Of a DNA stretch of 64,000 nt, positions 11,236 to 36,567 are shown piece by piece (position 1 is the first letter of the stretch; every line of letters begins with the position of its first letter). Where the stretch lies: assembly GCA_045118155.1 (NCBI GenBank), contig JBGUXS010000078.1:443-64442 (forward strand), in the 5' to 3' direction. The position numbers and the translations under genes are program-made. The DNA comes from Alphaproteobacteria bacterium (lineage in GTDB: Bacteria; Pseudomonadota; Alphaproteobacteria; CAAHEQ01; UBA3637). The notes under the pieces were generated by a model. The model saw only the letters and a program-made list of their open reading frames with translations, searched no databases and was not told the origin of the DNA.

Positions 11236-13428
11236 TTAATCTTCTTTATTTTCTAGCTTTTGTTCTTCAGTTTTTTCGGATTTATGCTCTTTTTCAGGTT
11301 TTTCTGCCTTTTCCGGCACAGGAATTTCTTCCCCTGTTTCCTGATTAACACACTTCATACTCAAACGAATTTTGCCTTTTTCAAGCCCCATGAATTTGAC
11401 CTTAACACGATCACCTTCTTTTAGAACATCAGTAACTTGTTTTACACGATGTTGGGCAATTTCAGAAATATGTACCAATCCGTCTTGCTTGCCACAGAAG
11501 TTCACAAAAGCCCCAAAATCCATGATTTTCACAACGGTTCCATCATAAATTTGACCAATTTCAGGTTCTGCCACAATATTTTTAATCATGGCTAAAGCTT
11601 TCTGGGCAGATTCTTCAGATAAAGAAGCAATTTGAATCACCCCATTATCATCAATATCAATTTTAGCCCCAGATTGTTCCACAATATCCCGAATCGTTTT
11701 ACCCCCAGATCCAATCACATCTTTAATTTTATCTTTGGCAATTTGGATTAAGGTAAGGCGTGGAGCATGAGCGCTAATTTCTGTCCGAGGTCCCTGCAAT
11801 GTTTCAGCAATTTTTCCCAAGATGAATAACCGCCCTTCTTTAGCTTGTTTTAAGGCTTTTTCCATAATTTCACGTGTAATGGATGTAATTTTAATATCCA
11901 TTTGCAAAGCGGTTACCCCATCGGCAGTTCCAGCCACTTTAAAATCCATATCCCCTAGGTGATCTTCATCCCCCATAATATCGGATAGGATAACAAAGTT
12001 ATCGGCTTCTTTCACAAGCCCCATTGCAATCCCCGCGACTGGCTTTTTCAAAGGGACCCCAGCATCCATTAATGCCAATGTTCCCCCACAAACCGTCGCC
12101 ATAGAAGAAGAACCGTTAGATTCCATAATATCTGAAACTACCCGAATGGAATAAGGGAATTCTTCCTTACTAGGCAACATCGGGTGCAATGCCCGCCAAG
12201 CCAATTTTCCGTGACCGATTTCACGACGTCCCGGACTACCAAGGCGACCAACTTCCCCCACAGAATACGGTGGAAAGTTATAGTGGAGTAAGAAACTTTC
12301 CTTATATTCCCCAGATAGGCAATCCACCACTTGTTCATCATCCGCAGTCCCCAACGTTGCTGTCACTAACGCTTGAGTTTCCCCACGCGTGAATAAAGCC
12401 GATCCATGCGCCCGACTTAACAATCCAACTTCGCTTTCAATCGGCCGAATAGTTTTTGTATCCCGCCCATCAATACGAATCCCCGTGTTTAAAACCGCTT
12501 CCCGCATAACTTTGGATTCCAAAGAATGGAAAATTTGATCACACATGTAAGGTTCCACATCTGGATTGTCGGCAAATAAACCTTGAGCCTTTTCCCGTAA
12601 TTCCGCAAGTTTATCAAGTCTAACCAATTTTTCGTGAATTTGGTAAGCCGCGGCAATATCTGCCCGCAATTCTTTTTCCAATGTTTGTTCCACTAAATCA
12701 AAAGAAGCTGGCTTTTCTGGAACTTCCCAAGCATCTTTAGCACATTCTTCAGCAAGTTCAATAATCATTTTGATAACGGGCTTTAATTGTTCATGCCCAA
12801 AATAAACCGCTTGCAACATGACATCTTCTGGTAATTCTTGTGCTTCGGATTCAACCATTAACACCCCTTCAAGGGTTCCGGCTACAACCAAATCCAACGC
12901 GGATTTTTCAAGATCTTTTGGACTAGGATTTAAGACATAATTTCCATCAATATACCCAACACGTGCCCCCGCGATAGGTCCTAAAAAAGGCAAGCCGGAT
13001 AACGTCAAGGCCGCGGATGACGCAATCATTGCCACAATATCAGCTTGCGTTTCTTTTTCAAAGTTAATTAATGTCGCGGTTACTTGTGTTTCGTTGTTAA
13101 AACCTTTTACAAACAAAGGCCGAATAGGCCGATCAATTAACCGTGATGTTAAAATTTCGTATTCACTAGGCTTTCCTTCCCGTTTGAAAAAGCCCCCAGG
13201 GAAACGCCCCGCCGCATATGTTTTTTCCTGATAATTCACCGTTAGCGGAATAAAATCTTCAAATTTTTCTGGTGGAACCTTACTGGCACATACGGCTGCA
13301 TGTACCATTGTTTCCCCGTATTTTACAATAACGGAACCATCTGCCTGACGTCCAATCTTACCTGTTTCAATACTTAAGGTTTTGTCTCCCCATTGAATTT
13401 CTTTACGATAAATTTTAAATAATGACAT
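11236..13428 (-). CDS. pnp: polynucleotide phosphorylase
   Basis: RNase PH domains, KH and S1 domains. K/E-rich C-terminal extension ([25 protein letters not shown]). Confidence 0.95.
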
Positions 13429-13485
13429 ATTTTCTCTTTCCTTCCAATAAAAAGGGCCTTTACCCTTGCAAAGGCCCTGACAAAC

Positions 13486-13755
13486 TTACTTGCGCAAACC
13501 TAAGCGCCGTAAAATATCTTCATACCTCTTCACTTCTTTCTTTTTCAGGTATGTAAGCAGTGACCGTCGTTCTGCCACCATTTTCAACAATCCACGCCGT
13601 GAATGGAAATCCTTAGCATGTGTTTTCATGTGTTCTGATAAGTCCTTAATCCGTTCGGTTAAAATAGCAATTTGAACCTCTGGTGAACCGGTATCAGTTG
13701 GTGACAAAGCAAATTCTTTGATCAACTGTTGTTTTTTTTCTTTACTTAACGACAT
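13486..13755 (-). CDS. rpsO: 30S ribosomal protein S15
   Basis: 89 aa, ...[23 protein letters not shown]... Confidence 0.92.
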
Positions 13756-14668: not shown

Positions 14669-15059
14669 GGGCCACCAATGAACGTACCCGTTCTACCATA
14701 GAAAAAAAACCATTCCGACGCGTGGGGGATAAATGATCTTCTAGACCTAAATCCTTAAAAATCCGTTCTATATCCAATTCCCGAATAAAAGCAGCTGTTT
14801 GCCCATTAATTAGGGAAAGTAAAATAGCCTCTAACCCCCGTACAATAAAGGCATCGCTATCGGCAACAAAAAAGAACTTATCCCCTTTTTGCTGAACAGT
14901 AATCCACACTTGTGATTGGCATCCTTGGACCTTATGGGCTTCTGTTTTATCTTCTTCTGGCATCGGGGGTAAACTCTGTCCTAATTCAATTAGGTATTGG
15001 TATTTTTCTTCCCAATCCGTAAATAAAGAAAAATTATCAATTAATTCCTGTTCTGTCAT
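14661..15059 (-). CDS. sufE: SufE-like cysteine desulfuration (sulfur acceptor) protein
   Basis: VQGCQSQVWI active-site Cys motif. 132 aa. Confidence 0.8.
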   Translation of the reverse strand: MTEQELIDNFSLFTDWEEKYQYLIELGQSLPPMPEEDKTEAHKVQGCQSQVWITVQQKGDKFFFVADSDAFIVRGLEAILLSLINGQTAAFIRELDIERIFKDLGLEDHLSPTRRNGFFSMVERVRSLVAHA

Positions 15060-16462
15060 TCAATGTTTTTTAATCCTTCTAGTGTTAATTTTACCTTTAT
15101 TATATCAACACTGCGATTTTTTTCATCAAAAATACGCTTATCCTCTTGTAAAAAAGGACGTAAGTCTTTTAATAATCCAGCATCTTCAGTAGCTTGACAC
15201 GCTGAATTTTGTAAAAATTCTTTTTCTTGAGGGGTTGTTTGAACCGCCACATTTTGTAAATAGGTTTGCATCAAAGTACATTGTTCTTCATCAATCGGTT
15301 TGGCTGGGGGAGAAATAGCATCAAAATTCCGAATAAGAAATTCAATATCTCCAACGGGTTTTTCCTTTTCAATCTGTCCTGTAAAATGCACATCTATAAC
15401 CGCTTGTACACTTTCCAAACTTCCTTTAACATCCAAATCAGCCCCTTTTAGCAGCCCCCAAGAAAAATCTTTAGAAAGCAATTGTTCTACTAATATTTCA
15501 CGATCAAACTTTTTGGCTTTGATAACTAATTTTCCCTTTTCTGGGATAAACCCTTTGGTCGGGACATTCCCTATACACGCGAATGTTAGGTTAATTTCAG
15601 CTTCCTCCCCCTTAAATTCTACTTGCCCTTCTACCTGCGTTAAAATAATCTTTCTGGGGTAAACGGGAAATACTAAATCCGCCTGTGGTATTTCAAATTC
15701 AATTTTTCCTGTATCCGCCAATAACCATGCATTATGTAAAATAGGGGCTAATCCCTGAAACCGTGCTTTTTCCGTTAAAGAAGCCACCGTCCCTTGCACT
15801 TCTTTCCCCGTAAATGTCAACCCCAAAAGGGAGGCTTTTTGTTCAATAACGGGAACATGCCCCAAAAAAGAAAACATATATTTGCCGTTTGCTTCATCCA
15901 CTTTCAATTGCCATTCGGGGCGCGTCAGGTGTACATGGCTAGCACTCCACCGATCTTCGGCAATCAAATCCCAATACGGGTGCCATTTAAATTCATTTTG
16001 CCACTTTTCAACATAGAAAAAATTGGGTTCAAATACCGCGGTTGCAAAACCTTCTAGTTGTTCTTTTGGGGGAAAGTGTCCCCGATATAACGTCGTCCCT
16101 TCTAATTGCCCATCTGGGGTCAATAATACCCCTTGTGTAGGGAAAGTCATTTCATCCGGTGTTTCTTTAAGTGGCATCCAAACGGTCAGAACTTTTTTCT
16201 TCAAGTCTAAATCATTCTTCACAGATGCTTCTGGCAATATTAAACTTGCTTGATCGGCTCGTTGTTGCAAAACAGCCCCCGAAATCCCCAATGCCTTTAA
16301 CTTCGCCCTTAGGGCCTTAGCCAAAGTATCATGATCCGGTCGTGTCAACACAGTGGATGGGGTTACGTAAGACATAGCATTAGGGAAAAAACGCGTTAAC
16401 ACCGCGCCTTGCAAAGCAACTGCCCCTACAAGAGCCAGACGTCCCAATAATTTTGCTAACAT
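15056..16462 (-). CDS. hypothetical secreted/periplasmic protein, 468 aa
   Basis: N-terminal signal-like MLAKLLGRLALVGAVALQGAV. No recognised motifs. Overlaps the sufE start by 4 nt. Confidence 0.55.
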   Translation of the reverse strand: MLAKLLGRLALVGAVALQGAVLTRFFPNAMSYVTPSTVLTRPDHDTLAKALRAKLKALGISGAVLQQRADQASLILPEASVKNDLDLKKKVLTVWMPLKETPDEMTFPTQGVLLTPDGQLEGTTLYRGHFPPKEQLEGFATAVFEPNFFYVEKWQNEFKWHPYWDLIAEDRWSASHVHLTRPEWQLKVDEANGKYMFSFLGHVPVIEQKASLLGLTFTGKEVQGTVASLTEKARFQGLAPILHNAWLLADTGKIEFEIPQADLVFPVYPRKIILTQVEGQVEFKGEEAEINLTFACIGNVPTKGFIPEKGKLVIKAKKFDREILVEQLLSKDFSWGLLKGADLDVKGSLESVQAVIDVHFTGQIEKEKPVGDIEFLIRNFDAISPPAKPIDEEQCTLMQTYLQNVAVQTTPQEKEFLQNSACQATEDAGLLKDLRPFLQEDKRIFDEKNRSVDIIKVKLTLEGLKNIE

Positions 16463-29980: not shown

Positions 29981-31951
29981 ATGCATTACTTAACAGGGGA
30001 AGAAGTTTCTGTCACATCCTTAAAAACAATAGCCCAAGAATTTGGTTTTATGTTGTGGCCGCACCCCGATGATCCTTTCTTATTGCATAAAACACCCTAT
30101 CAAAGTTTTCCAGAAATGCTTTCTGTCCTTACAGATCATATTACAGAAAAAAAACTTAATTCCCTCTTCACTTTCCCTGTTTCTTTCATCTTAGATGCGA
30201 ATGCACAATCTGAATCCTTACATAACTTCTTTAAATATCAAGCCCGTAACCAATTGGATAAAACCATCGGTGTCTTGCTAACTTGCCCCGTTATTTACGC
30301 CTGTGATGTTGCGCAAATTTTTACCGAAGCCTTACATCAACGATTACACTTTCCTAGCACACGTTACAGTAATATTCATATGGCTATTCATGAAGCGCTC
30401 GTCAATGGTTTAGTGCATGGAAATCTAAAACTACCTAGTTCTTTACGGCAATCAGCTCGTGATTTCGTTGATTACGCCCGCATTGTTAATGAACGCTTAT
30501 TAGACCCTGCCTATGCTAATAAATCCATCAGTATTTGGGCTACTTGGAATACCTCTAGATTGGAAATTAAGATTCGGGACGAAGGGGCTGGATATACGGT
30601 TTTACCCCCCCATAAAAAACATGTGGCAGAAAAACGTTCTGGACGGGGGCTTTATCTAATTGCCGGAACTGCTGATTCCTGCACAATTGATGATTTTGGG
30701 CGAGAAATCACATTATCTTTTATTCTAAATAATCTAAACAACGAACAAGATATCGGGGTTTCTGAAAATGCGGCTTTACTGCATGATCCTGTAACCGATT
30801 TTTCGGATTGTCGTATTTTAATCATTGAAGATAACCCCAGTAATCAAATCTTGGTTTCACAACTTTTAAACGTGGTTGGAATTGGTCATATTGAAACAGC
30901 TCAAGATGGGGTTGAAGGCCTTGAAAAAGCATTCAGTATGAAACCAGACTTAGTCATTTTGGACATCACTATGCCCCGAATGAATGGATATGAAGTACTT
31001 CACCAACTCAGAACAAATCAAGATACGGCCTCTATCCCGGTTTTAATTCAAACGGCTTCTGATACACGGGCAGCACGGGATAAAACTTTTAGTGCGGGGG
31101 CAACAGACTTTATCACAAAGCCATTAAATCCTTTGGAATTTTTCTCTCGGATACGGGTACACTTAGAAAATAGATTACTTGTAAAACATCTTGAAACGAA
31201 ACTCGCTCAAATCAATGAAGAACTAGAACTTGCCCAAAAAATGCAAGAAAGTTTATTACCCCCCACGGAAGCACTTCAAGATATCAGCCAACGTTATCAT
31301 CTAGATATTTCTTATACGTTCTTACCTTCTTCCCATTTAGGGGGGGATTTCTGGCAAATTTTTCCATTGGCTAAAGATAAGGTCGCTTTTTATATTTGCG
31401 ATTTTTCGGGACATGGGGTAAGTGCTGCCATGAATACGTTCCGATTACACACCTTAATCGGGCAAATGGATATGACGGCATTGAAAAAGCCTTCCGAATT
31501 TCTTTTTATGCTTAATAATTCTTTGGTCAACTTGTTGCCCAGGGGACAATTTGCTACTTTCTTCTTTGGTATTTTAAACAAGCGACAAGGAACATTAACA
31601 TATGCTGGGGCCAGTTCGCCCTTCCCTATTTTGGTTAAGGACAACAAACCCTCTTTCTTAGATACTTCCGGGATGCCTTTGGGAATTTTAAAGGACGTTA
31701 CTTATAAAGATAAAAAGGTACCATTTTCCAAAGAAATGGGCATTTTACTATACAGTGACTCTTTCACTGAACAACAAAATAAAGAAGGAAATCGCCTTGA
31801 TTATGATGGTTTTATGAAAATGACTCAGACGTGTTTCTCAGAAAAAACATCTCAACAAGTCATTGCCCAAATCATGCAAAAATTTCATGAATTTTCTGAC
31901 ACCCCTAGTACCGATGATATTACGGCTGTCTATTTGAAAGGCCTCTTATGA
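29981..31951 (+). CDS. multidomain signalling protein: RsbW-like HATPase_c_2 kinase domain, receiver (REC) domain and PP2C/SpoIIE phosphatase
   Basis: N-box IHEALVNGLVHGN, G-boxes IRDEGAGY and GRGLYLIAG. REC domain ILIIEDNP...DLVILDITMP...ITKP. PP2C domain GGDFW...ICDFSGHGVSAAM...DDITAV. Confidence 0.75.
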   Translation: MHYLTGEEVSVTSLKTIAQEFGFMLWPHPDDPFLLHKTPYQSFPEMLSVLTDHITEKKLNSLFTFPVSFILDANAQSESLHNFFKYQARNQLDKTIGVLLTCPVIYACDVAQIFTEALHQRLHFPSTRYSNIHMAIHEALVNGLVHGNLKLPSSLRQSARDFVDYARIVNERLLDPAYANKSISIWATWNTSRLEIKIRDEGAGYTVLPPHKKHVAEKRSGRGLYLIAGTADSCTIDDFGREITLSFILNNLNNEQDIGVSENAALLHDPVTDFSDCRILIIEDNPSNQILVSQLLNVVGIGHIETAQDGVEGLEKAFSMKPDLVILDITMPRMNGYEVLHQLRTNQDTASIPVLIQTASDTRAARDKTFSAGATDFITKPLNPLEFFSRIRVHLENRLLVKHLETKLAQINEELELAQKMQESLLPPTEALQDISQRYHLDISYTFLPSSHLGGDFWQIFPLAKDKVAFYICDFSGHGVSAAMNTFRLHTLIGQMDMTALKKPSEFLFMLNNSLVNLLPRGQFATFFFGILNKRQGTLTYAGASSPFPILVKDNKPSFLDTSGMPLGILKDVTYKDKKVPFSKEMGILLYSDSFTEQQNKEGNRLDYDGFMKMTQTCFSEKTSQQVIAQIMQKFHEFSDTPSTDDITAVYLKGLL

Positions 31952-32655
31952 TTCGGGTGTATATAGAGGCTCTGGACCCTAAAAAACCAACACCTCTTTC
32001 TGTGGATCACTATCATTATTTGGCCCACGTTATGCGTTTAAAAGCGGGGGACAGTTTTTTAGCGTTTAATCAACTTCAAGGGGAATTTTTAGCTGTATTT
32101 CAACCTAAAAACAAAAAAGAAGGTCATCTTTTACTACAAAAACAAACGCGTTTACCAGAACAACCTCGTCCGCCTGTAACACTTTATATCGCCCCTATCC
32201 GAAAAGAAAAAATGGAACTTGTGTTACAAAAGGCAACAGAAATTGGCGTAGAGATCATCCAACCTATTTTAACGAAACATACATGCCATCGGCCTTTATC
32301 AAAAGAACGGGCGGATATTATTATAAAAGAAGCGGTAGAACAATCTGAACGGCTGACATTACCTAATTGGCTTCCCCCTATATCTTTGGAAGAACTTCTT
32401 ATTAAACGTTCAACAGATATCCCTCTTTTTTACCTATCCGAACGAGGGGAAACGCAACATATTTCTTTGCCCGCCCCTCCTATAAGCTTTCTTATCGGAC
32501 CAGAAGGGGGATTTTCTAAGGAAGAAATTACCTTATTAGGTCAACAAAAAAACGCCCAAGCTATCAACCTAGGCGCTTTTATTCTACGGGCGGAAACAGC
32601 CGCTATTGCTATGCTAGCGACCTACCGCTTTCATAAACTGTTTTATACAGCTTGA
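31948..32655 (+). CDS. rsmE: 16S rRNA (uracil1498-N3)-methyltransferase
   Basis: MIRVYIE...HYLAHVMRLKAGDSFLAFNQLQGEF... with a C-terminal SPOUT fold. Confidence 0.8.
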   Translation: MIRVYIEALDPKKPTPLSVDHYHYLAHVMRLKAGDSFLAFNQLQGEFLAVFQPKNKKEGHLLLQKQTRLPEQPRPPVTLYIAPIRKEKMELVLQKATEIGVEIIQPILTKHTCHRPLSKERADIIIKEAVEQSERLTLPNWLPPISLEELLIKRSTDIPLFYLSERGETQHISLPAPPISFLIGPEGGFSKEEITLLGQQKNAQAINLGAFILRAETAAIAMLATYRFHKLFYTA

Positions 32656-32831
32656 CGTAGTTTTTCCTCACAGCAACACTTTTCTTCAACAAACCATATA
32701 CGATCTTCAAATTCGGATTTTTTCCCCTTATTGAATTGGCTAACAGGACGAAAATACCCCATAACCCGTGTCCAACATTCCACCGCTTGACGTTCATTAG
32801 AAAATTTTTCTAAAATTTGGTTATCTGTCAT
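32643..32831 (-). CDS. stand-alone glycyl-radical domain (NrdD C-terminal-like) small protein, 62 aa
   Basis: RVMGYFRPVSQFNKGKKSEFEDRIWF matches the class III RNR glycyl-radical motif (RVCGY...N.GK..E..DR). ATGA overlap with the nrdD stop. Confidence 0.6.
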   Translation of the reverse strand: MTDNQILEKFSNERQAVECWTRVMGYFRPVSQFNKGKKSEFEDRIWFVEEKCCCEEKLRQAV

Positions 32832-34897
32832 GCTTTGTTCTCCTTTTCTGCAAGTTCTTGACGTTTTTTTTCAATGAGTTCCGCATCACACTTTGGGCAG
32901 AACTTGTGTTCCCCACTAATATACCCATGCTTGGGGCAAATAGAATAGACAGGGGTAATAGAAACATAAGGAAGATGATAATTTTCTAATACCCGTCTAA
33001 TAAGTGATTTACAAACACTTGCTGAAGAAATCCGTTCATTCATATACAGGTGCAAAACCGTTCCCCCTGTATACTGTGTTTGCAATTCATCTTGATAATC
33101 CAACGCTTTAAACGGATCATCTGTGAAGTTCTGTGGTAATTGAGAAGAGTTTGTATAATAGGGGGCCTCTTTCTTTCCTGCTTGAATAATACCAGGATAG
33201 CGTTTTTGATCTTCTTTGGCAAAACGATATGTTGTCCCTTCAGCTGGCGTTGCTTCCAAATTGTACATATTTCCTGTTTCTGCTTGGAAATCCAGCATTT
33301 TTTCCCGAATATGTGTTAAAAATTCTTTAGCCATCGCCCGCCCTTTTTCCGAAGCAATGTATTCTTCATCATTAGTAAAGTTCCGAATCATTTCATTAAT
33401 ACCATTAACCCCAATCGTGGAAAAATGATTTCGGAATGTTCCTAAATATCGCCGTGTATAAGGATACAACCCCCGATCCATGTGCATTGAAATGGTTTTA
33501 CGTTTAATTTCTAAGGAAGTCTTCGCTAATTCCAGTAATTCATCCAAACGTTTATACAATTCCTCTTTCTTCCCCTTATACAGGTATCCCAAACGGGCAC
33601 AGTTAATTGTAACAACCCCAATAGACCCCGTTTGTTCTGCTGAACCAAATAAACCACCACCTCGTTTTTTCAATTCCGTCAAATCCAACCGTAACCGACA
33701 ACACATTGAACGAATATCTGAAGGCTTCATATCAGAACTAACATAGTTTGAAAAATAGGGTAATCCATATTTAGCCGTCATTTCAAATAACAATTCCGTA
33801 TTTTCAGAATCCCATGGGAATTCATTTGTAATATTGTATGTCGGGATAGGGAAAGTAAACGGCCGCCCTTTGGCATCCCCACTTCCCATAACTTCTAAAT
33901 AAGCCCTATTAATCATATCCATTTCTTTTTGCAGATCACCATAAACAAAATCTTGTTCCACCCCCCCAATGATAGGGTGCCGATTCTTCAAATCTTCAGG
34001 GCAATTCCAATCAAAAGTTAAGTTCGTAAAGGGTGTCTGTGTCCCCCAACGCGATGGTACATTCAAGTTAAAGATGAAGGATTGCATCGCTTGTTTTACT
34101 TCTTCATAAGGTAATTTTTCAATTCGTATAAATGGTGCTAAGTACGTATCCACAGAAGAAAACGCCTGTGCCCCAGCCCATTCATTCTGCAAAGTCCCCA
34201 AGAAATTAATCATCTGGCTAAACGCAGAAACAAGGTGTTTTGGCGGTTTAGATTCTGTCTTATTGGGAACCCCATTAAAACCTTCTTCTAATAAAACCCT
34301 TAAGGACCACCCTGCACAATACCCACTCAACATATCCAAATCATGAATATGATAATCCCCATTTCGGTGAGCTTCCCCAATTTCTGGCGTATACACGTGG
34401 CTCAACCAATAATTGGCCACCACCTTTCCTGCCGTATTTAAAATCAATCCCCCTAAGGAATATCCTTGATTAGCATTTGCGTTCACCCGCCAATCTGACC
34501 GATCTAAATATTCATTAATAGAAGCCACCGCATCAATAACCGTTTTCTTATCATTCCGCATTTTTCCGCGTTGTTCACGGTACACGATATAAGCCCGGGC
34601 AGTTTTGTAATAATTAGAGGAAATTAAAACCTGTTCAACCACATCTTGAATTTGCTCAATATTAGGATAAACCCCGAAAGCAAACCGATGCTTTAAAACC
34701 TTAATAACTTGTCTTGTTAATAACCACGCTTCATCTTGACCGAATTCAGCCGTTGCTTCCCCAGCTTTCAAAATAGCAACCATAATTTTAGTCACATCAA
34801 ACGGATACTGTTGCCCATCCCGTTTAATTACATAGCTCAACGGACTAATATCAATGGTTACATTTAGCGGCTGGGCTCCTGTCAAAACTTGCAACAT
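32828..34897 (-). CDS. nrdD: anaerobic (class III) ribonucleoside-triphosphate reductase, large catalytic part without a glycyl-radical domain
   Basis: N-terminal ATP-cone (VIKRDGQQYPFDVTKI...AYIVYREQR). SMCCRLRLD region. C-terminal Zn ribbon CPKHG...CPKC. The ORF ends before any RVxGY motif. Confidence 0.75.
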   Translation of the reverse strand: MLQVLTGAQPLNVTIDISPLSYVIKRDGQQYPFDVTKIMVAILKAGEATAEFGQDEAWLLTRQVIKVLKHRFAFGVYPNIEQIQDVVEQVLISSNYYKTARAYIVYREQRGKMRNDKKTVIDAVASINEYLDRSDWRVNANANQGYSLGGLILNTAGKVVANYWLSHVYTPEIGEAHRNGDYHIHDLDMLSGYCAGWSLRVLLEEGFNGVPNKTESKPPKHLVSAFSQMINFLGTLQNEWAGAQAFSSVDTYLAPFIRIEKLPYEEVKQAMQSFIFNLNVPSRWGTQTPFTNLTFDWNCPEDLKNRHPIIGGVEQDFVYGDLQKEMDMINRAYLEVMGSGDAKGRPFTFPIPTYNITNEFPWDSENTELLFEMTAKYGLPYFSNYVSSDMKPSDIRSMCCRLRLDLTELKKRGGGLFGSAEQTGSIGVVTINCARLGYLYKGKKEELYKRLDELLELAKTSLEIKRKTISMHMDRGLYPYTRRYLGTFRNHFSTIGVNGINEMIRNFTNDEEYIASEKGRAMAKEFLTHIREKMLDFQAETGNMYNLEATPAEGTTYRFAKEDQKRYPGIIQAGKKEAPYYTNSSQLPQNFTDDPFKALDYQDELQTQYTGGTVLHLYMNERISSASVCKSLIRRVLENYHLPYVSITPVYSICPKHGYISGEHKFCPKCDAELIEKKRQELAEKENKA

Positions 34898-35056
34898 ATA
34901 GTCTTTCCTTTCTTAAAAATTACTAAATATAGTTGTTTTACTCCTTTTTTTCTTTTTCTAGTCAACCGTTTTTCTCCCCCAAAGTCAATAGCTATTTTAA
35001 AAATAAAACAACTTTTTTTTAAACTCATTGAAAAATAGAAATATTTTTTAATGAAT

Positions 35057-35758
35057 CTATAACAAGCCCTCACGCATCAAAGATGTTACGGATTCTTTTC
35101 CTATGATTAAACTATCAAAAATATCTATATGCAATGGACGTAAAACAGCCTTTATTAGGCGGGTAGCTGTAATATCTTCTTCCGAGGGAATGGCCTCCCC
35201 TGACGGATGATTATGCACCAAAATGATATGACTAGCCCGTTCCACAATAGCCCGTTGTGCAATAACTTCCACAGGGATATGAACCATACGTTTTCCCCCT
35301 TTTTGAATAAGTTCATCTTTCAACAGGTACAATTGGGCATCCAATATCAATAAATGCAGTTCTTCCTCTGTTTTGTGGGCATAATTTAAATGGCAATAAT
35401 CCACTAGATTATCCCAATTTTCTAAAATGGGACGTTGAATCACTTCTAATTTTTTAGCCCGTAACGTCAATTCTAAACAAAACTTAAAAAAGGCCGCAGA
35501 TGTTTCTTGTAATCCTTTTATACTTACTAATTCTTCAACAGGGGCTTGCAAAATTCCCAAAATACTTTGAAAACGATCCATCAGTCGTTTTGCAATAGGG
35601 CGTACATCACATCTAGGGATCACAAACATCAAGCCCAATTCAACAAGATCTGTATCAGAAAGGGCCTCTGGTAACGTCAAAAACCGTGTCCGTAACTTCT
35701 GCCGATGTCCCGTATGGATATACCCAGCATCTTTGGTGGTCTTTGACGTTGTTTTCAT
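35057..35758 (-). CDS. radC: RadC-family JAB/MPN domain protein
   Basis: HNHPSGEAIPSEEDITATRLI JAMM motif. Confidence 0.85.
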   Translation of the reverse strand: MKTTSKTTKDAGYIHTGHRQKLRTRFLTLPEALSDTDLVELGLMFVIPRCDVRPIAKRLMDRFQSILGILQAPVEELVSIKGLQETSAAFFKFCLELTLRAKKLEVIQRPILENWDNLVDYCHLNYAHKTEEELHLLILDAQLYLLKDELIQKGGKRMVHIPVEVIAQRAIVERASHIILVHNHPSGEAIPSEEDITATRLIKAVLRPLHIDIFDSLIIGKESVTSLMREGLL

Positions 35759-36567
35759 TACCTTTCTTCCGCTTGCAGTATATTATTTTTAGAAGGATTT
35801 TTAACAAAGTTCAAAATATCTTGGACATATATATTCTTTCCTAAAGTAGGATCTTCTTCTACCTGTTGTATACGTTCAACAAATGTTGTTCCTTCCTTTT
35901 TGGTAAACAACGCCTTATACGCTTTTTGCAAAACGAAGATATCTTCTTTAGACATACCACGACGTTGCAACCCAATTAAATTGAGCCCTGCTAAATGCGA
36001 AGGGATTCCCCCTAGGGCTATCCCATAAGGAATCACATCCCGTGTAATTCCACACATAGCCCCTATCATCGCACCTTTCCCAATTCTGGTAAATTGCAAA
36101 ACCCCTGCCATCCCCCCAACAGTCACATTATCTTCTACTTTTACATGACCAGCTAAGCTAGCATTATTACTCATAACAATATTGTTTCCTAATTTGCAAT
36201 CATGAGCAATGTGGCTATACGCCAAAAAGAAATTATCATTTCCAATACGGGTAATATTATCATCTACATCTGATCCCCCGATGTGAACAGTAACCCCTTC
36301 TCTAAAAGTGTTTCTATCCCCAATAATTAACAAACCATCCGTTGCATCACAACGTTTATGTTGATGCATTCCCCCAATGGTTGCGAACTGGTACACCGTA
36401 CATCCAGAACCCATCGTTGTATGCCCATCAATCACCGCATGAGAAATTACTTTACAACCTGCCCCCATTTTAACAAAAGGACCTATCGTACAAAAGGGCC
36501 CTATTTCAACATCTTCTGCAAGTTCTGCTTTTGGATCAACAATACTAGTAGGATGAATTTTAACCAT
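35758..36567 (-). CDS. lpxA: acyl-ACP-UDP-N-acetylglucosamine O-acyltransferase
   Basis: Hexapeptide-repeat LbH fold, IHPTSIVDPKAEL... Confidence 0.9.
   Translation of the reverse strand: MVKIHPTSIVDPKAELAEDVEIGPFCTIGPFVKMGAGCKVISHAVIDGHTTMGSGCTVYQFATIGGMHQHKRCDATDGLLIIGDRNTFREGVTVHIGGSDVDDNITRIGNDNFFLAYSHIAHDCKLGNNIVMSNNASLAGHVKVEDNVTVGGMAGVLQFTRIGKGAMIGAMCGITRDVIPYGIALGGIPSHLAGLNLIGLQRRGMSKEDIFVLQKAYKALFTKKEGTTFVERIQQVEEDPTLGKNIYVQDILNFVKNPSKNNILQAEER

What the first reader, a model, noticed from the sequence alone, without database searches (positions are those of the whole stretch)
32643..34897. Class III ribonucleotide reductase with the glycyl-radical domain encoded as a separate 62-aa ORF, and no nrdG nearby
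The 689-aa ORF has the NrdD ATP-cone, the catalytic region and the C-terminal Zn ribbon (CPKHG...CPKC) but terminates before any glycyl-radical motif. The next ORF, overlapping by ATGA, encodes RVMGYFRPVSQFNKGKKSEFEDRIWF, i.e. the NrdD glycyl-radical segment (RV[CS]GY...NxGKxxExxDR), as a stand-alone peptide analogous to the GrcA/YfiD spare-part protein of pyruvate formate-lyase. The junction is about 40 residues longer than the linker in intact NrdD. This could be a genuine two-piece RNR, a recent frameshift, or a sequencing error. The activase nrdG is not adjacent: rsmE and radC flank the locus.
Basis: partly seen in the sequence, partly recalled or inferred. Interest (0 to 1): 0.7.

Follow-up and report, generated by a model that had tools for sequence, protein, structure and literature searches.

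The report
Two-piece anaerobic ribonucleotide reductase
This bacterium makes its oxygen-sensitive DNA-precursor enzyme from two genes, a large catalytic protein and a separate 62-residue peptide that carries the radical-bearing glycine; hundreds of other bacteria share this conserved layout, and I found no paper that describes it.

Summary
A 689-aa NrdD (ATP-cone, catalytic barrel with an MCCR finger loop, Zn ribbon) stops 17 residues after the Zn ribbon. A 62-aa ORF that overlaps it by ATGA carries the whole glycyl-radical segment (RVMGY...NxGKxxE).

- **Reproducible:** six independent assemblies show the same junction. Two of them have the nearby A8 run interrupted.
- **Under selection:** in the sister lineage both genes have dN/dS of about 0.01.
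- **Widespread:** 75 of 80 related genomes, from Alpha-, Beta- and Gammaproteobacteria and Coriobacteriia, encode the peptide separately. These include Oxalobacter, Magnetospirillum, Ectothiorhodospira and Sulfuricella.
- **Independently translated:** the junction varies from -32 to +197 nt, in all three frames, with all three stop codons, and the peptide gene has its own Shine-Dalgarno site.
- **Fused forms are rare:** they sit scattered among the split forms.
- **A large family:** the 150 best matches among 1.84 billion representative proteins are all 54-153 aa.

In relatives the activase gene nrdG follows the peptide gene, typically within about 27 nt. In this window nrdG is absent, which is the real local oddity.

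Best reading: an obligate two-subunit class III RNR whose radical domain works in trans. It resembles GrcA but is not a GrcA-type spare part. A June 2026 review says that only the formate lyases have such small proteins.

The parts
32828..34897 (-). nrdD large (catalytic) subunit, 689 aa, 78.8 kDa. It has an ATP-cone, a class III RNR barrel and a Zn ribbon, but no glycyl-radical segment.
   Evidence: PF03477, PF13597 positions 2-529/562, NF006126 at 1133 bits. The identical protein is found in 6 independent assemblies.
34565..34834 (-). ATP-cone (res 22-111), the allosteric activity site.
   Evidence: E 2e-21; coordinates.
33695..33706 (-). Finger-loop motif MCCR (res 398-401), which holds the presumed thiyl-radical cysteine. 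This is the double-cysteine type of class III RNR.
   Evidence: Sequence. All 70 split relatives analysed have MCCR. Motif classes are taken from PMC9669993.
32888..32938 (-). Zn-ribbon-like motif CPKH-x10-CPKC (res 654-670), with three Cys and one His.
   Evidence: Sequence. The motif is conserved in all relatives.
32831..32881 (-). C-terminal tail of the large subunit (ELIEKKRQELAEKENKA, res 673-689). It is charged and predicted helical, and it lies beyond the end of the Pfam match.
   Evidence: Helix 668-685 appears in both AF2 models, but both models have low overall confidence.
32864..32871 (-). A8 homopolymer in nrdD. A +1 indel here would fuse the two ORFs. The run is not conserved.
   Evidence: The run is interrupted in L082, L086 and L087 with the frames unchanged.
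32840..32845 (-). Shine-Dalgarno AAGGAG, 8 nt upstream of the small ORF's ATG and inside the 3' end of nrdD.
   Evidence: A GGAG-like site is present in 66 of 70 relatives.
32643..32831 (-). Gene for the stand-alone glycyl-radical subunit, 62 aa, 7.5 kDa. The start overlaps the nrdD stop (ATGA). The 3' end overlaps the convergent rsmE by 13 nt.
   Evidence: 517 homologues; the best 120 are all 46-80 aa; best 150 representatives are 54-153 aa; dN/dS about 0.01.
32697..32795 (-). Conserved core of the small subunit (res 13-45: ERQAVECWTRVMGYFRPVSQFNKGKKSEFEDRI). The presumed radical site Gly25 is encoded at 32757-32759.
   Evidence: invariant columns; aligns to T. maritima NrdD 612-644, RIVGY.
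32670..32678 (-). CCC motif (res 52-54) in the C-terminal tail of the small subunit. Its role is unknown.
   Evidence: A C-x0-2-C tail occurs in 37 of 70 small subunits. In L025-L028 the CxC sits instead at the C-terminus of the large subunit.

Best explanation
This is a class III (anaerobic, glycyl-radical) ribonucleotide reductase built from two polypeptides.

The 689-aa subunit holds the ATP-cone regulatory site, the catalytic barrel with the MCCR finger-loop cysteines, and a Zn ribbon. The 62-aa subunit is the glycyl-radical domain that other NrdDs carry at their C-terminus. It is translated independently from its own Shine-Dalgarno site and is translationally coupled to nrdD through the ATGA overlap.

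Inferred mechanism:
1. The radical-SAM activase NrdG abstracts a hydrogen from Gly25 of the free or loosely bound peptide.
2. The radical-bearing hairpin docks into the barrel of the large subunit.
3. The radical passes to the finger-loop cysteine, and nucleotide reduction proceeds as in single-chain NrdD.

Two consequences would follow from the radical domain being a separate protein. It would not need to swing out of the barrel on a tether to reach the activase. After oxygen cleaves it at the radical glycine, only a 7.5-kDa peptide would have to be replaced rather than the 79-kDa enzyme.

Shown here: the two-gene architecture, its conservation, purifying selection on both genes, independent translation signals, tight linkage of the peptide gene to nrdG in relatives, and interchange with fused forms.

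Inferred, not shown: radical formation on Gly25, docking in trans, and any benefit for repair or regulation.

In this particular lineage nrdG is not next to the locus and must be encoded elsewhere in the genome.
For: 1. **Complementary domain coverage.** The large ORF covers NRDD profile positions 2-529 and the small ORF covers 530-560. The large ORF aligns to T. maritima NrdD 100-612 and the small to 612-644.
2. **Not an artefact.** The identical NrdD and junction appear in 6 assemblies from different samples, which differ from the window at 12-15 nt. Two of them have the A-run interrupted.
3. **Purifying selection.** Window against L087: nrdD dN 0.020, dS 1.64; small ORF dN 0.037 with dS saturated; omega about 0.01 for both.
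4. **Conservation.** 75 of 80 related genome loci encode a separate small ORF, 2 are fused, 1 ends at a contig edge, and 3 have none within the flank.
5. **Junction geometry.** Relative frames are 27/24/19; stop codons are TAA 33, TGA 29, TAG 8; the gap runs from -32 to +197 nt; a Shine-Dalgarno site is present in 66 of 70.
6. **Family size.** There are 4144 hits, 913 of them at E<=1e-10, among 1.84 billion representatives. The best 150 are all 54-153 aa.
7. **Linkage to the activase.** In all 75 loci with nrdG, the small ORF lies just upstream on the same strand, at a median of about 27 nt. This includes L055, where the small-nrdG pair sits 3.6 kb from nrdD on the other strand.
8. **Fused and split forms interconvert.** Fused proteins of 708-760 aa fall in at least 4-5 separate lineages whose nearest neighbours are split. 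Their linkers are as long as the summed tails here.
9. **Catalytic motifs intact.** The MCCR motif is present here and in all 70 split relatives analysed.
Against: - There is no biochemical evidence that the peptide is activated or that it binds the large subunit.
- The two AF2 models of an artificial fusion were of low confidence (mean pLDDT 62.6 and 65.3). They disagreed on the radical-domain region, so docking is not supported structurally.
- nrdG is absent from the 64-kb window. I could not locate it elsewhere in this organism.
- The repair advantage is argued by analogy with GrcA only.
Confidence: 0.82

Rival explanations
1. The split is a sequencing or assembly indel, or a recent inactivating frameshift (pseudogene), in an otherwise single-chain nrdD. 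The A8 run would be the likely site.
For: The small ORF's frame is open back to the A8 run, so a +1 nt change at 32864-32871 would join the frames.
Against: - The same junction occurs in 6 independent assemblies. Strain variants with an interrupted A-run keep both frames.
- An orthologue whose small subunit is 90% identical (L087) keeps the ATGA overlap.
- dN/dS is about 0.01 for both ORFs.
- 75 of 80 related species carry the split, with unrelated junction geometries.
Confidence: 0.01
2. Programmed ribosomal frameshifting or stop-codon readthrough makes a single fused NrdD, so the two ORFs are not separate proteins in vivo.
For: The window has an ATGA overlap and an upstream A-rich slippery-looking run. 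About a third of relatives have the two ORFs in the same frame, separated by one stop codon.
Against: - Relative frames are evenly spread (27/24/19), all three stop codons are used, and gaps reach 197 nt with intervening stops.
- 66 of 70 small ORFs have their own Shine-Dalgarno site and ATG.
- The A-run is not conserved even among strains.
- In L055 the small gene lies 3.6 kb away on the opposite strand.
- No Rfam element was found in the region.
Confidence: 0.03
3. The small protein is a true GrcA-like spare part that rescues an intact, single-chain NrdD encoded elsewhere. The truncated 689-aa protein would then be inactive on its own or have another role.
For: The GrcA precedent for PFL (PMC13450708). 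The rest of this genome, outside the window, was not seen.
Against: - The large subunit keeps every catalytic motif and is under strong purifying selection.
- It is co-located with the peptide gene in 74 of 80 relatives.
- No second nrdD was seen in the window or in the 10-kb flanks of the related loci, but whole genomes were not examined.
- Fused and split forms replace one another within the same clade.
Confidence: 0.05
4. In this lineage the RNR is non-functional or decaying because nrdG has been lost.
For: No nrdG is present in the 64-kb window or in the orthologous L087 contig, whereas all 75 related loci that carry nrdG have it immediately downstream of the small ORF.
Against: omega of about 0.01 between the two lineages that lack an adjacent nrdG shows both genes are still under strong constraint. 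L061 and the Holosporaceae loci show that the three genes can be unlinked.
Confidence: 0.07

Closest known systems
Single-chain class III RNR NrdD with activase NrdG (phage T4, E. coli, T. maritima 4COI/4U3E, P. copri 8P23)
   Same: It has the same domains in the same order: ATP-cone, barrel with a finger-loop Cys (MCCR type, as in the T. maritima lineage), Zn ribbon, and an RVxGY...NxGKxxE radical segment. Relatives have nrdG in the same operon.
   Different: The polypeptide ends 17 residues after the Zn ribbon, and the radical segment is a separate 62-aa protein. The linker region is about 29 residues longer than the Pfam consensus. The Zn site has three Cys and one His. nrdG is not adjacent in this window.
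GrcA/YfiD, the autonomous glycyl radical cofactor of pyruvate formate-lyase (and phage T4 vs.6)
   Same: It is a small stand-alone protein that carries a glycyl-radical loop, is presumably activated by the cognate radical-SAM activase, and can supply a radical domain in trans (PMC13450708; PMC1524935).
   Different: GrcA is homologous to the PFL C-terminus (Pfam Gly_radical), whereas this peptide matches only NRDD. GrcA backs up an enzyme that has its own radical domain. Here the partner has none, so the peptide is obligate. The June 2026 review states that spare-part proteins are known only for the formate lyases.
Split class II RNR NrdJa + NrdJb (Pseudomonas aeruginosa; Thermus phage phiYS40)
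   Same: An RNR whose C-terminal accessory domain is encoded by a separate adjacent gene in one subclade and fused in others (PMC5704485; PMC9669993).
   Different: It belongs to a different class (B12-dependent). The detached part of NrdJ is a Cys-rich Zn-finger domain used for re-reduction, not the radical-bearing element.
Phage nrdD genes interrupted by introns, inteins or homing endonucleases (T4 nrdD intron; Aeromonas phage phiAS4; Aeh1 nrdA)
   Same: RNR coding sequence in more than one piece (PMC3653736).
   Different: Those interruptions come from mobile elements or sporadic fragmentation at various positions. Here there is no intervening element, and the break sits at one domain boundary across hundreds of bacterial species.

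Membership tests
Class III RNR catalytic subunit NrdD (Pfam PF13597 / NCBIfam NF006126) | NRDD catalytic domain above the curated threshold | tested here: met
   PF13597 at 588 bits (cutoff 26.2); NF006126 at 1133 bits (cutoff 548).
Class III RNR catalytic subunit NrdD (Pfam PF13597 / NCBIfam NF006126) | Finger-loop cysteine motif (MGCR or MCCR) | tested here: met
   MCCR at res 398-401. Motif definition from PMC9669993.
Class III RNR catalytic subunit NrdD (Pfam PF13597 / NCBIfam NF006126) | C-terminal Zn ribbon preceding the radical loop | tested here: met
   CPKH-x10-CPKC at res 654-670, with His in place of the second Cys. Conserved in all relatives. Metal binding was not tested.
Class III RNR catalytic subunit NrdD (Pfam PF13597 / NCBIfam NF006126) | Glycyl-radical motif RVxGY at the C-terminus of the same polypeptide | tested here: not met
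   The 689-aa ORF ends at profile position 529 of 562. The motif is on the separate 62-aa ORF.
Class III RNR catalytic subunit NrdD (Pfam PF13597 / NCBIfam NF006126) | Cognate radical-SAM activase NrdG encoded with it | tested here: not met
   None in the 64-kb window. Present downstream of the small ORF in 75 of 80 related loci. The rest of the genome is not available.
Class III RNR catalytic subunit NrdD (Pfam PF13597 / NCBIfam NF006126) | Glycyl radical formed, and NTP reduction activity | not testable with these tools
   Needs EPR and enzyme assays.
GrcA/YfiD-type spare-part protein | Small stand-alone protein containing a glycyl-radical loop | tested here: met
   62 aa with RVMGY at res 22-26.
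GrcA/YfiD-type spare-part protein | Homology to the PFL-type Gly_radical domain (PF01228) | tested here: not met
   The Pfam scan at E<=0.01 returns only PF13597 NRDD.
GrcA/YfiD-type spare-part protein | Partner enzyme has its own radical domain, which the small protein replaces after damage | tested here: not met
   The adjacent NrdD lacks the domain altogether. The same holds in 75 of 80 relatives.
Split RNR of the NrdJa/NrdJb kind | B12-dependent class II catalytic subunit with a detached Cys-rich Zn-finger domain | tested here: not met
   The protein is class III by Pfam and NCBIfam. This is an analogy of architecture only.

The most novel reading that the evidence does not exclude
A large, widespread subfamily of class III RNRs uses its glycyl-radical domain as a free, exchangeable 7-kDa protein cofactor. 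NrdG would activate it off the enzyme, which fits the peptide gene's closer linkage to nrdG than to nrdD. It would dock reversibly into the catalytic subunit, be discarded and replaced after oxygen damage, and possibly be released when dATP binds the ATP-cone. This would be the first glycyl-radical enzyme whose radical domain is obligately in trans. It would also give a natural minimal substrate for studying activase recognition and radical hand-over.
Probability: 0.45. Interest if true: 0.85.

Novelty: new variant of a known kind. Interest (0 to 1): 0.7.

Why it matters
All glycyl-radical enzymes face the same problem. The radical glycine is buried in the barrel during catalysis, yet it must reach the activase's active site to be activated. 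Oxygen then cuts the whole enzyme at that glycine.

A natural system in which the radical domain is a separate 60-aa protein makes several questions directly testable:
- What does the activase recognise?
- Is the radical domain activated on or off the enzyme?
- How is the radical domain held in the barrel?
- Can oxygen damage be repaired by exchanging a subunit?

The system is present in cultivable bacteria (Oxalobacter formigenes, Magnetospirillum fulvum, Ectothiorhodospira, Sulfuricella).

It also matters for annotation and phylogenomics. RefSeq names both the roughly 690-aa and the roughly 60-aa proteins as the reductase itself. Surveys that filter on full-length NrdD, or that score NrdD as 'lacking the radical glycine', would misjudge this subfamily. 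For gut and rumen Alphaproteobacteria, it indicates an anaerobic route to dNTPs.

Tried and rejected
1. **Structure prediction.** I ran two AF2 jobs on an artificial fusion of the two window proteins, using block alignments A2 and A3. In A2, MAFFT misaligned the Zn-ribbon region of the query. A3 fixed this. Both models had low confidence (mean pLDDT 62.6 and 65.3; pTM 0.51 and 0.59), probably because the available homologues are all at least 65% identical. The radical-domain segment scored about 80 in one model and below 50 in the other. No conclusion on docking was drawn, and no fold search was run.
2. **Locating nrdG of this organism.** I searched with the NrdG of the closest relative and looked up three candidates, chosen mainly by matching sources and long contigs (P0223, P0129, P0130). 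All three sit in ordinary nrdD-small-nrdG operons of other organisms. The window has its own pnp and rpsO, only 71% and 58% identical to those next to P0223. Look-ups with two proteins from the window's edges, meant to extend the contig, found nothing on record.
3. **RNA elements.** An Rfam scan of 31500-36500 found nothing. The promoter and terminator scan was at background level.
4. **Other RNR genes in the window.** There is no second ATP-cone protein and no NrdR-like start in the window.
5. **Literature.** Eight searches and ten papers were examined (an eleventh look-up, Wei et al. 2014, was not held). I found only split class II NrdJab, phage RNR genes interrupted by mobile elements, and GrcA for PFL.
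6. **A clustering oddity.** One cluster joined the Oxalobacter small protein with 227- and 244-aa NrdG sequences. I checked it and dismissed it as a clustering artefact.
Full report
**What is in the window**

On the minus strand, a 689-aa ORF (32828..34897) is followed by a 62-aa ORF (32643..32831). The ATG of the second overlaps the TGA of the first (ATGA).

- Pfam places an ATP-cone at residues 22-111 of the large ORF and the NRDD domain at residues 141-672. The NRDD match covers profile positions 2-529 of 562.
- The small ORF matches the same profile at positions 530-560 (34.4 bits, above the 26.2-bit cutoff).
- NCBIfam assigns the large ORF to NF006126/PRK08270, 'ribonucleoside triphosphate reductase', at 1133 bits.
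- Against solved structures, the large ORF aligns to T. maritima NrdD residues 100-612. A profile of the small protein aligns to residues 612-644, the RIVGY radical segment.

The two ORFs are therefore the two halves of one NrdD, cut between the Zn ribbon (CPKH-x10-CPKC, res 654-670) and the radical loop (RVMGY, Gly25 of the small ORF).

**It is not an error or a pseudogene**

A +1 change in the A8 run at 32864-32871 would join the frames, so this had to be tested.

- The identical 689-aa protein, the 62-aa ORF and the same flanking genes occur on contigs from six independent assemblies (ENA, Logan, JGI).
- These strains differ from the window at 12-15 nt across the two genes. In two of them the A-run is interrupted (GAGAAAAAACG) and the frames are unchanged.
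- A more distant orthologue (L087, small protein 90% identical) has GAAAAGAAACG and keeps the ATGA overlap.
- Between the window and L087, nrdD has dN 0.020 and dS 1.64. The small ORF has dN 0.037 with saturated dS. This gives omega of about 0.01 for both.

**The split is a conserved architecture**

A search with the 62-aa protein returned 517 homologues. The best 120 are all 46-80 aa.

A scan of one genome per GTDB species with the large protein returned 80 loci at 67-87% identity. The breakdown is as follows:

| State | Loci |
|---|---|
| Separate small ORF adjacent to nrdD | 74 |
| Separate small ORF 3.6 kb away on the other strand, next to nrdG (L055) | 1 |
| Fused (L033, L078) | 2 |
| Contig ends at the junction | 1 |
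| No small ORF in the flank (three Holosporaceae loci) | 3 |

Carriers include gut and rumen Alphaproteobacteria, which are the closest relatives. They also include Magnetospirillum fulvum, Ectothiorhodospira, Sulfuricella, Oxalobacter formigenes and O. paraformigenes, a Thioglobus MAG and Coriobacteriia.

Across 70 split loci the junction is unconstrained:
- The relative frames are 27/24/19.
- The stop codons are TAA 33, TGA 29 and TAG 8.
- The spacing runs from -32 to +197 nt.
- 66 of 70 small ORFs have a GGAG-type Shine-Dalgarno site. In the window this is AAGGAG, 8 nt before the ATG.

This rules out programmed frameshifting or readthrough as the general mechanism and shows independent initiation.

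A profile of the small protein, scored against 1.84 billion representative proteins, gave 4144 hits, 913 of them at E<=1e-10. The best 150 are all 54-153 aa, and one of those is an edge fragment of a fused protein.

**Fused relatives**

Proteins of 708-760 aa with the radical segment in cis exist, but they are few (13 of 197 cores). They fall in at least four or five separate places among split neighbours. For example, the nearest relatives of L033/P0433 are split proteins at 85% identity, while other fused proteins are only 76-78% identical to it.

The linker in fused proteins, between CPxCD and the conserved Trp, is 36-39 residues. The large tail and small N-terminus in the window sum to 37. 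The long linker is therefore a family trait. It is about 29 residues longer than the Pfam consensus, not about 40. The cis and trans states appear to interchange.

**Link to the activase**

In all 75 loci that contain an NrdG-type radical-SAM gene (CPxRCxYCHN), the small ORF lies directly upstream on the same strand. The median distance is about 27 nt, and 71 of the 75 lie within about 330 nt. This holds even where the pair is detached from nrdD. The peptide gene is thus more tightly linked to nrdG than nrdD is. That fits the peptide being the activase's substrate.

**The local peculiarity**

The window has no nrdG.
- No ORF of 90 aa or more has a CxxxCxxC motif.
- tblastn finds nothing.
- An unfiltered HMM built from 123 NrdG sequences, run against all 597 open frames, gives a best E of 0.87.

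The small ORF instead ends in a 13-nt convergent overlap with rsmE, and radC lies upstream. The same context occurs in L087. Only one other locus (L061) has a small ORF without nrdG nearby.

Both genes are under strong constraint in this lineage, so the activase is most likely encoded elsewhere. I could not find it.

**Features of the small subunit**

- The invariant columns are R14, E18, W20-T-R-V-M-G25-Y-F-R-P29, N34, G36, K37, S39, E40, R44, F47 and E49.
- A cysteine sits 8 residues (PCEVW) or 6 residues (PVECW, as here) before the glycine in 69 of 70 relatives.
- 37 of 70 have a C-x0-2-C motif in a C-terminal tail that extends beyond the canonical NrdD end (CCC here).
- In L025-L028 the small tail lacks this motif, and the large subunit ends in ...QQACAC instead.

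These cysteines may be metal ligands or a redox shuttle. That is speculation.

**Mechanism**

Shown:
- A catalytic subunit with intact class III motifs. The MCCR double-cysteine finger loop is the majority type, which PMC9669993 links to formate and/or thioredoxin use.
- A separately translated radical segment.
- Co-inheritance with the activase in relatives.

Inferred: NrdG generates the radical on Gly25 of the peptide. The peptide then docks in the barrel and passes the radical to the finger-loop cysteine.

The P. copri work shows that the radical domain of a single-chain NrdD moves as a rigid body and becomes disordered when dATP binds the ATP-cone (PMC11226230). In a two-piece enzyme that carries an ATP-cone, the same motion would amount to release of a subunit.

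By analogy with GrcA, oxygen damage would destroy only the 7.5-kDa peptide. Structure prediction could not test docking.

**Comparison with what is known**

The enzyme is a class III RNR by every sequence criterion except one. The radical glycine is not on the catalytic polypeptide.

It works like GrcA/YfiD in being a stand-alone radical domain, but it is not a member of that family. It matches NRDD rather than Gly_radical, and its partner has no radical domain to be replaced.

The nearest architectural precedent within RNRs is the split class II NrdJa/NrdJb. Phage nrdD genes in pieces are caused by mobile elements or sporadic breaks.

[quoted passage not shown] None of my searches found a description of a two-gene NrdD. 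Subscription-only papers are outside the library, so prior mention cannot be excluded.

The ORFs themselves are in public databases. RefSeq calls the 60-63-aa proteins 'anaerobic ribonucleoside-triphosphate reductase' or 'hypothetical protein'. Neither Pfam nor NCBIfam has a dedicated model.

**Verdict**

This is a real, conserved and apparently undescribed variant of a well-known enzyme: a two-subunit class III RNR with the glycyl-radical domain in trans. The window's copy is typical of the family except that it lacks the adjacent activase gene. Interest is 0.7. Confidence in the architecture is very high. Confidence in the trans mechanism is about 0.8. Confidence in a repair or regulatory advantage is moderate.

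Noticed in passing
window 32670-32678 (-); loci L001-L080: The small subunit often ends in a Cys-rich tail (CCC here; C-x0-2-C in 37 of 70 relatives) that extends past the canonical NrdD C-terminus. In L025-L028 the small tail lacks it and the large subunit ends in ...QQACAC instead, a complementary pattern. It could be a redox shuttle like the C-terminal Cys pair of class I/II RNRs, or a metal site.
   Followed up: partly
window 32775-32783 (-), small ORF res 17-19; related loci: A conserved cysteine sits either 8 residues (PCEVW) or 6 residues (PVECW) before the radical glycine, in 69 of 70 relatives. A few have both (PCECW). The Zn ribbon of the large subunit has only three Cys plus one His, so a ligand supplied in trans is conceivable.
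   Followed up: no
L055 (small ORF and nrdG at about 14985-15931, minus strand); L046, L047, L050: In Holosporaceae MAGs the small ORF travels with nrdG, 3.6 kb from nrdD on the other strand, or neither gene is within 10 kb of nrdD. This is the opposite of the window, where the small ORF stays with nrdD and nrdG is missing.
   Followed up: partly
L061 12085-12246; L070 12120-12236: Variant radical motif WTRAMGYCRPV (Ala two residues before the radical Gly, Cys two residues after it) in two rumen proteobacterial MAGs. L061 also lacks nrdG nearby.
   Followed up: no
window 32643-32655: The 3' ends of the small ORF (-) and of rsmE (+, 31948-32655) overlap convergently by 13 nt, and no terminator-like hairpin was found. 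This very tight junction is where nrdG sits in relatives.
   Followed up: partly
window 34925-34945 (-), upstream of nrdD: The AT-rich sequence CAACTATATTTAGTA about 30 nt upstream of the nrdD start resembles, from memory, an NrdR-box half-palindrome. No nrdR (ATP-cone protein) is present in the window.
   Followed up: no
window 29981-31951 (+): A 656-aa protein combines an HATPase_c_2 (anti-sigma kinase-like) domain, a response-regulator receiver and a SpoIIE/PP2C phosphatase domain. This is an RsbU-like partner-switching regulator, and it is conserved next to the locus in all strain assemblies.
   Followed up: no
window 11236-13755 (-); L088/L089: In another gut alphaproteobacterium the nrdD-small-nrdG operon lies convergent to pnp-rpsO. 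The window has its own pnp and rpsO about 20 kb from its nrdD, so the position of the nrd locus is not conserved among these genomes.
   Followed up: partly
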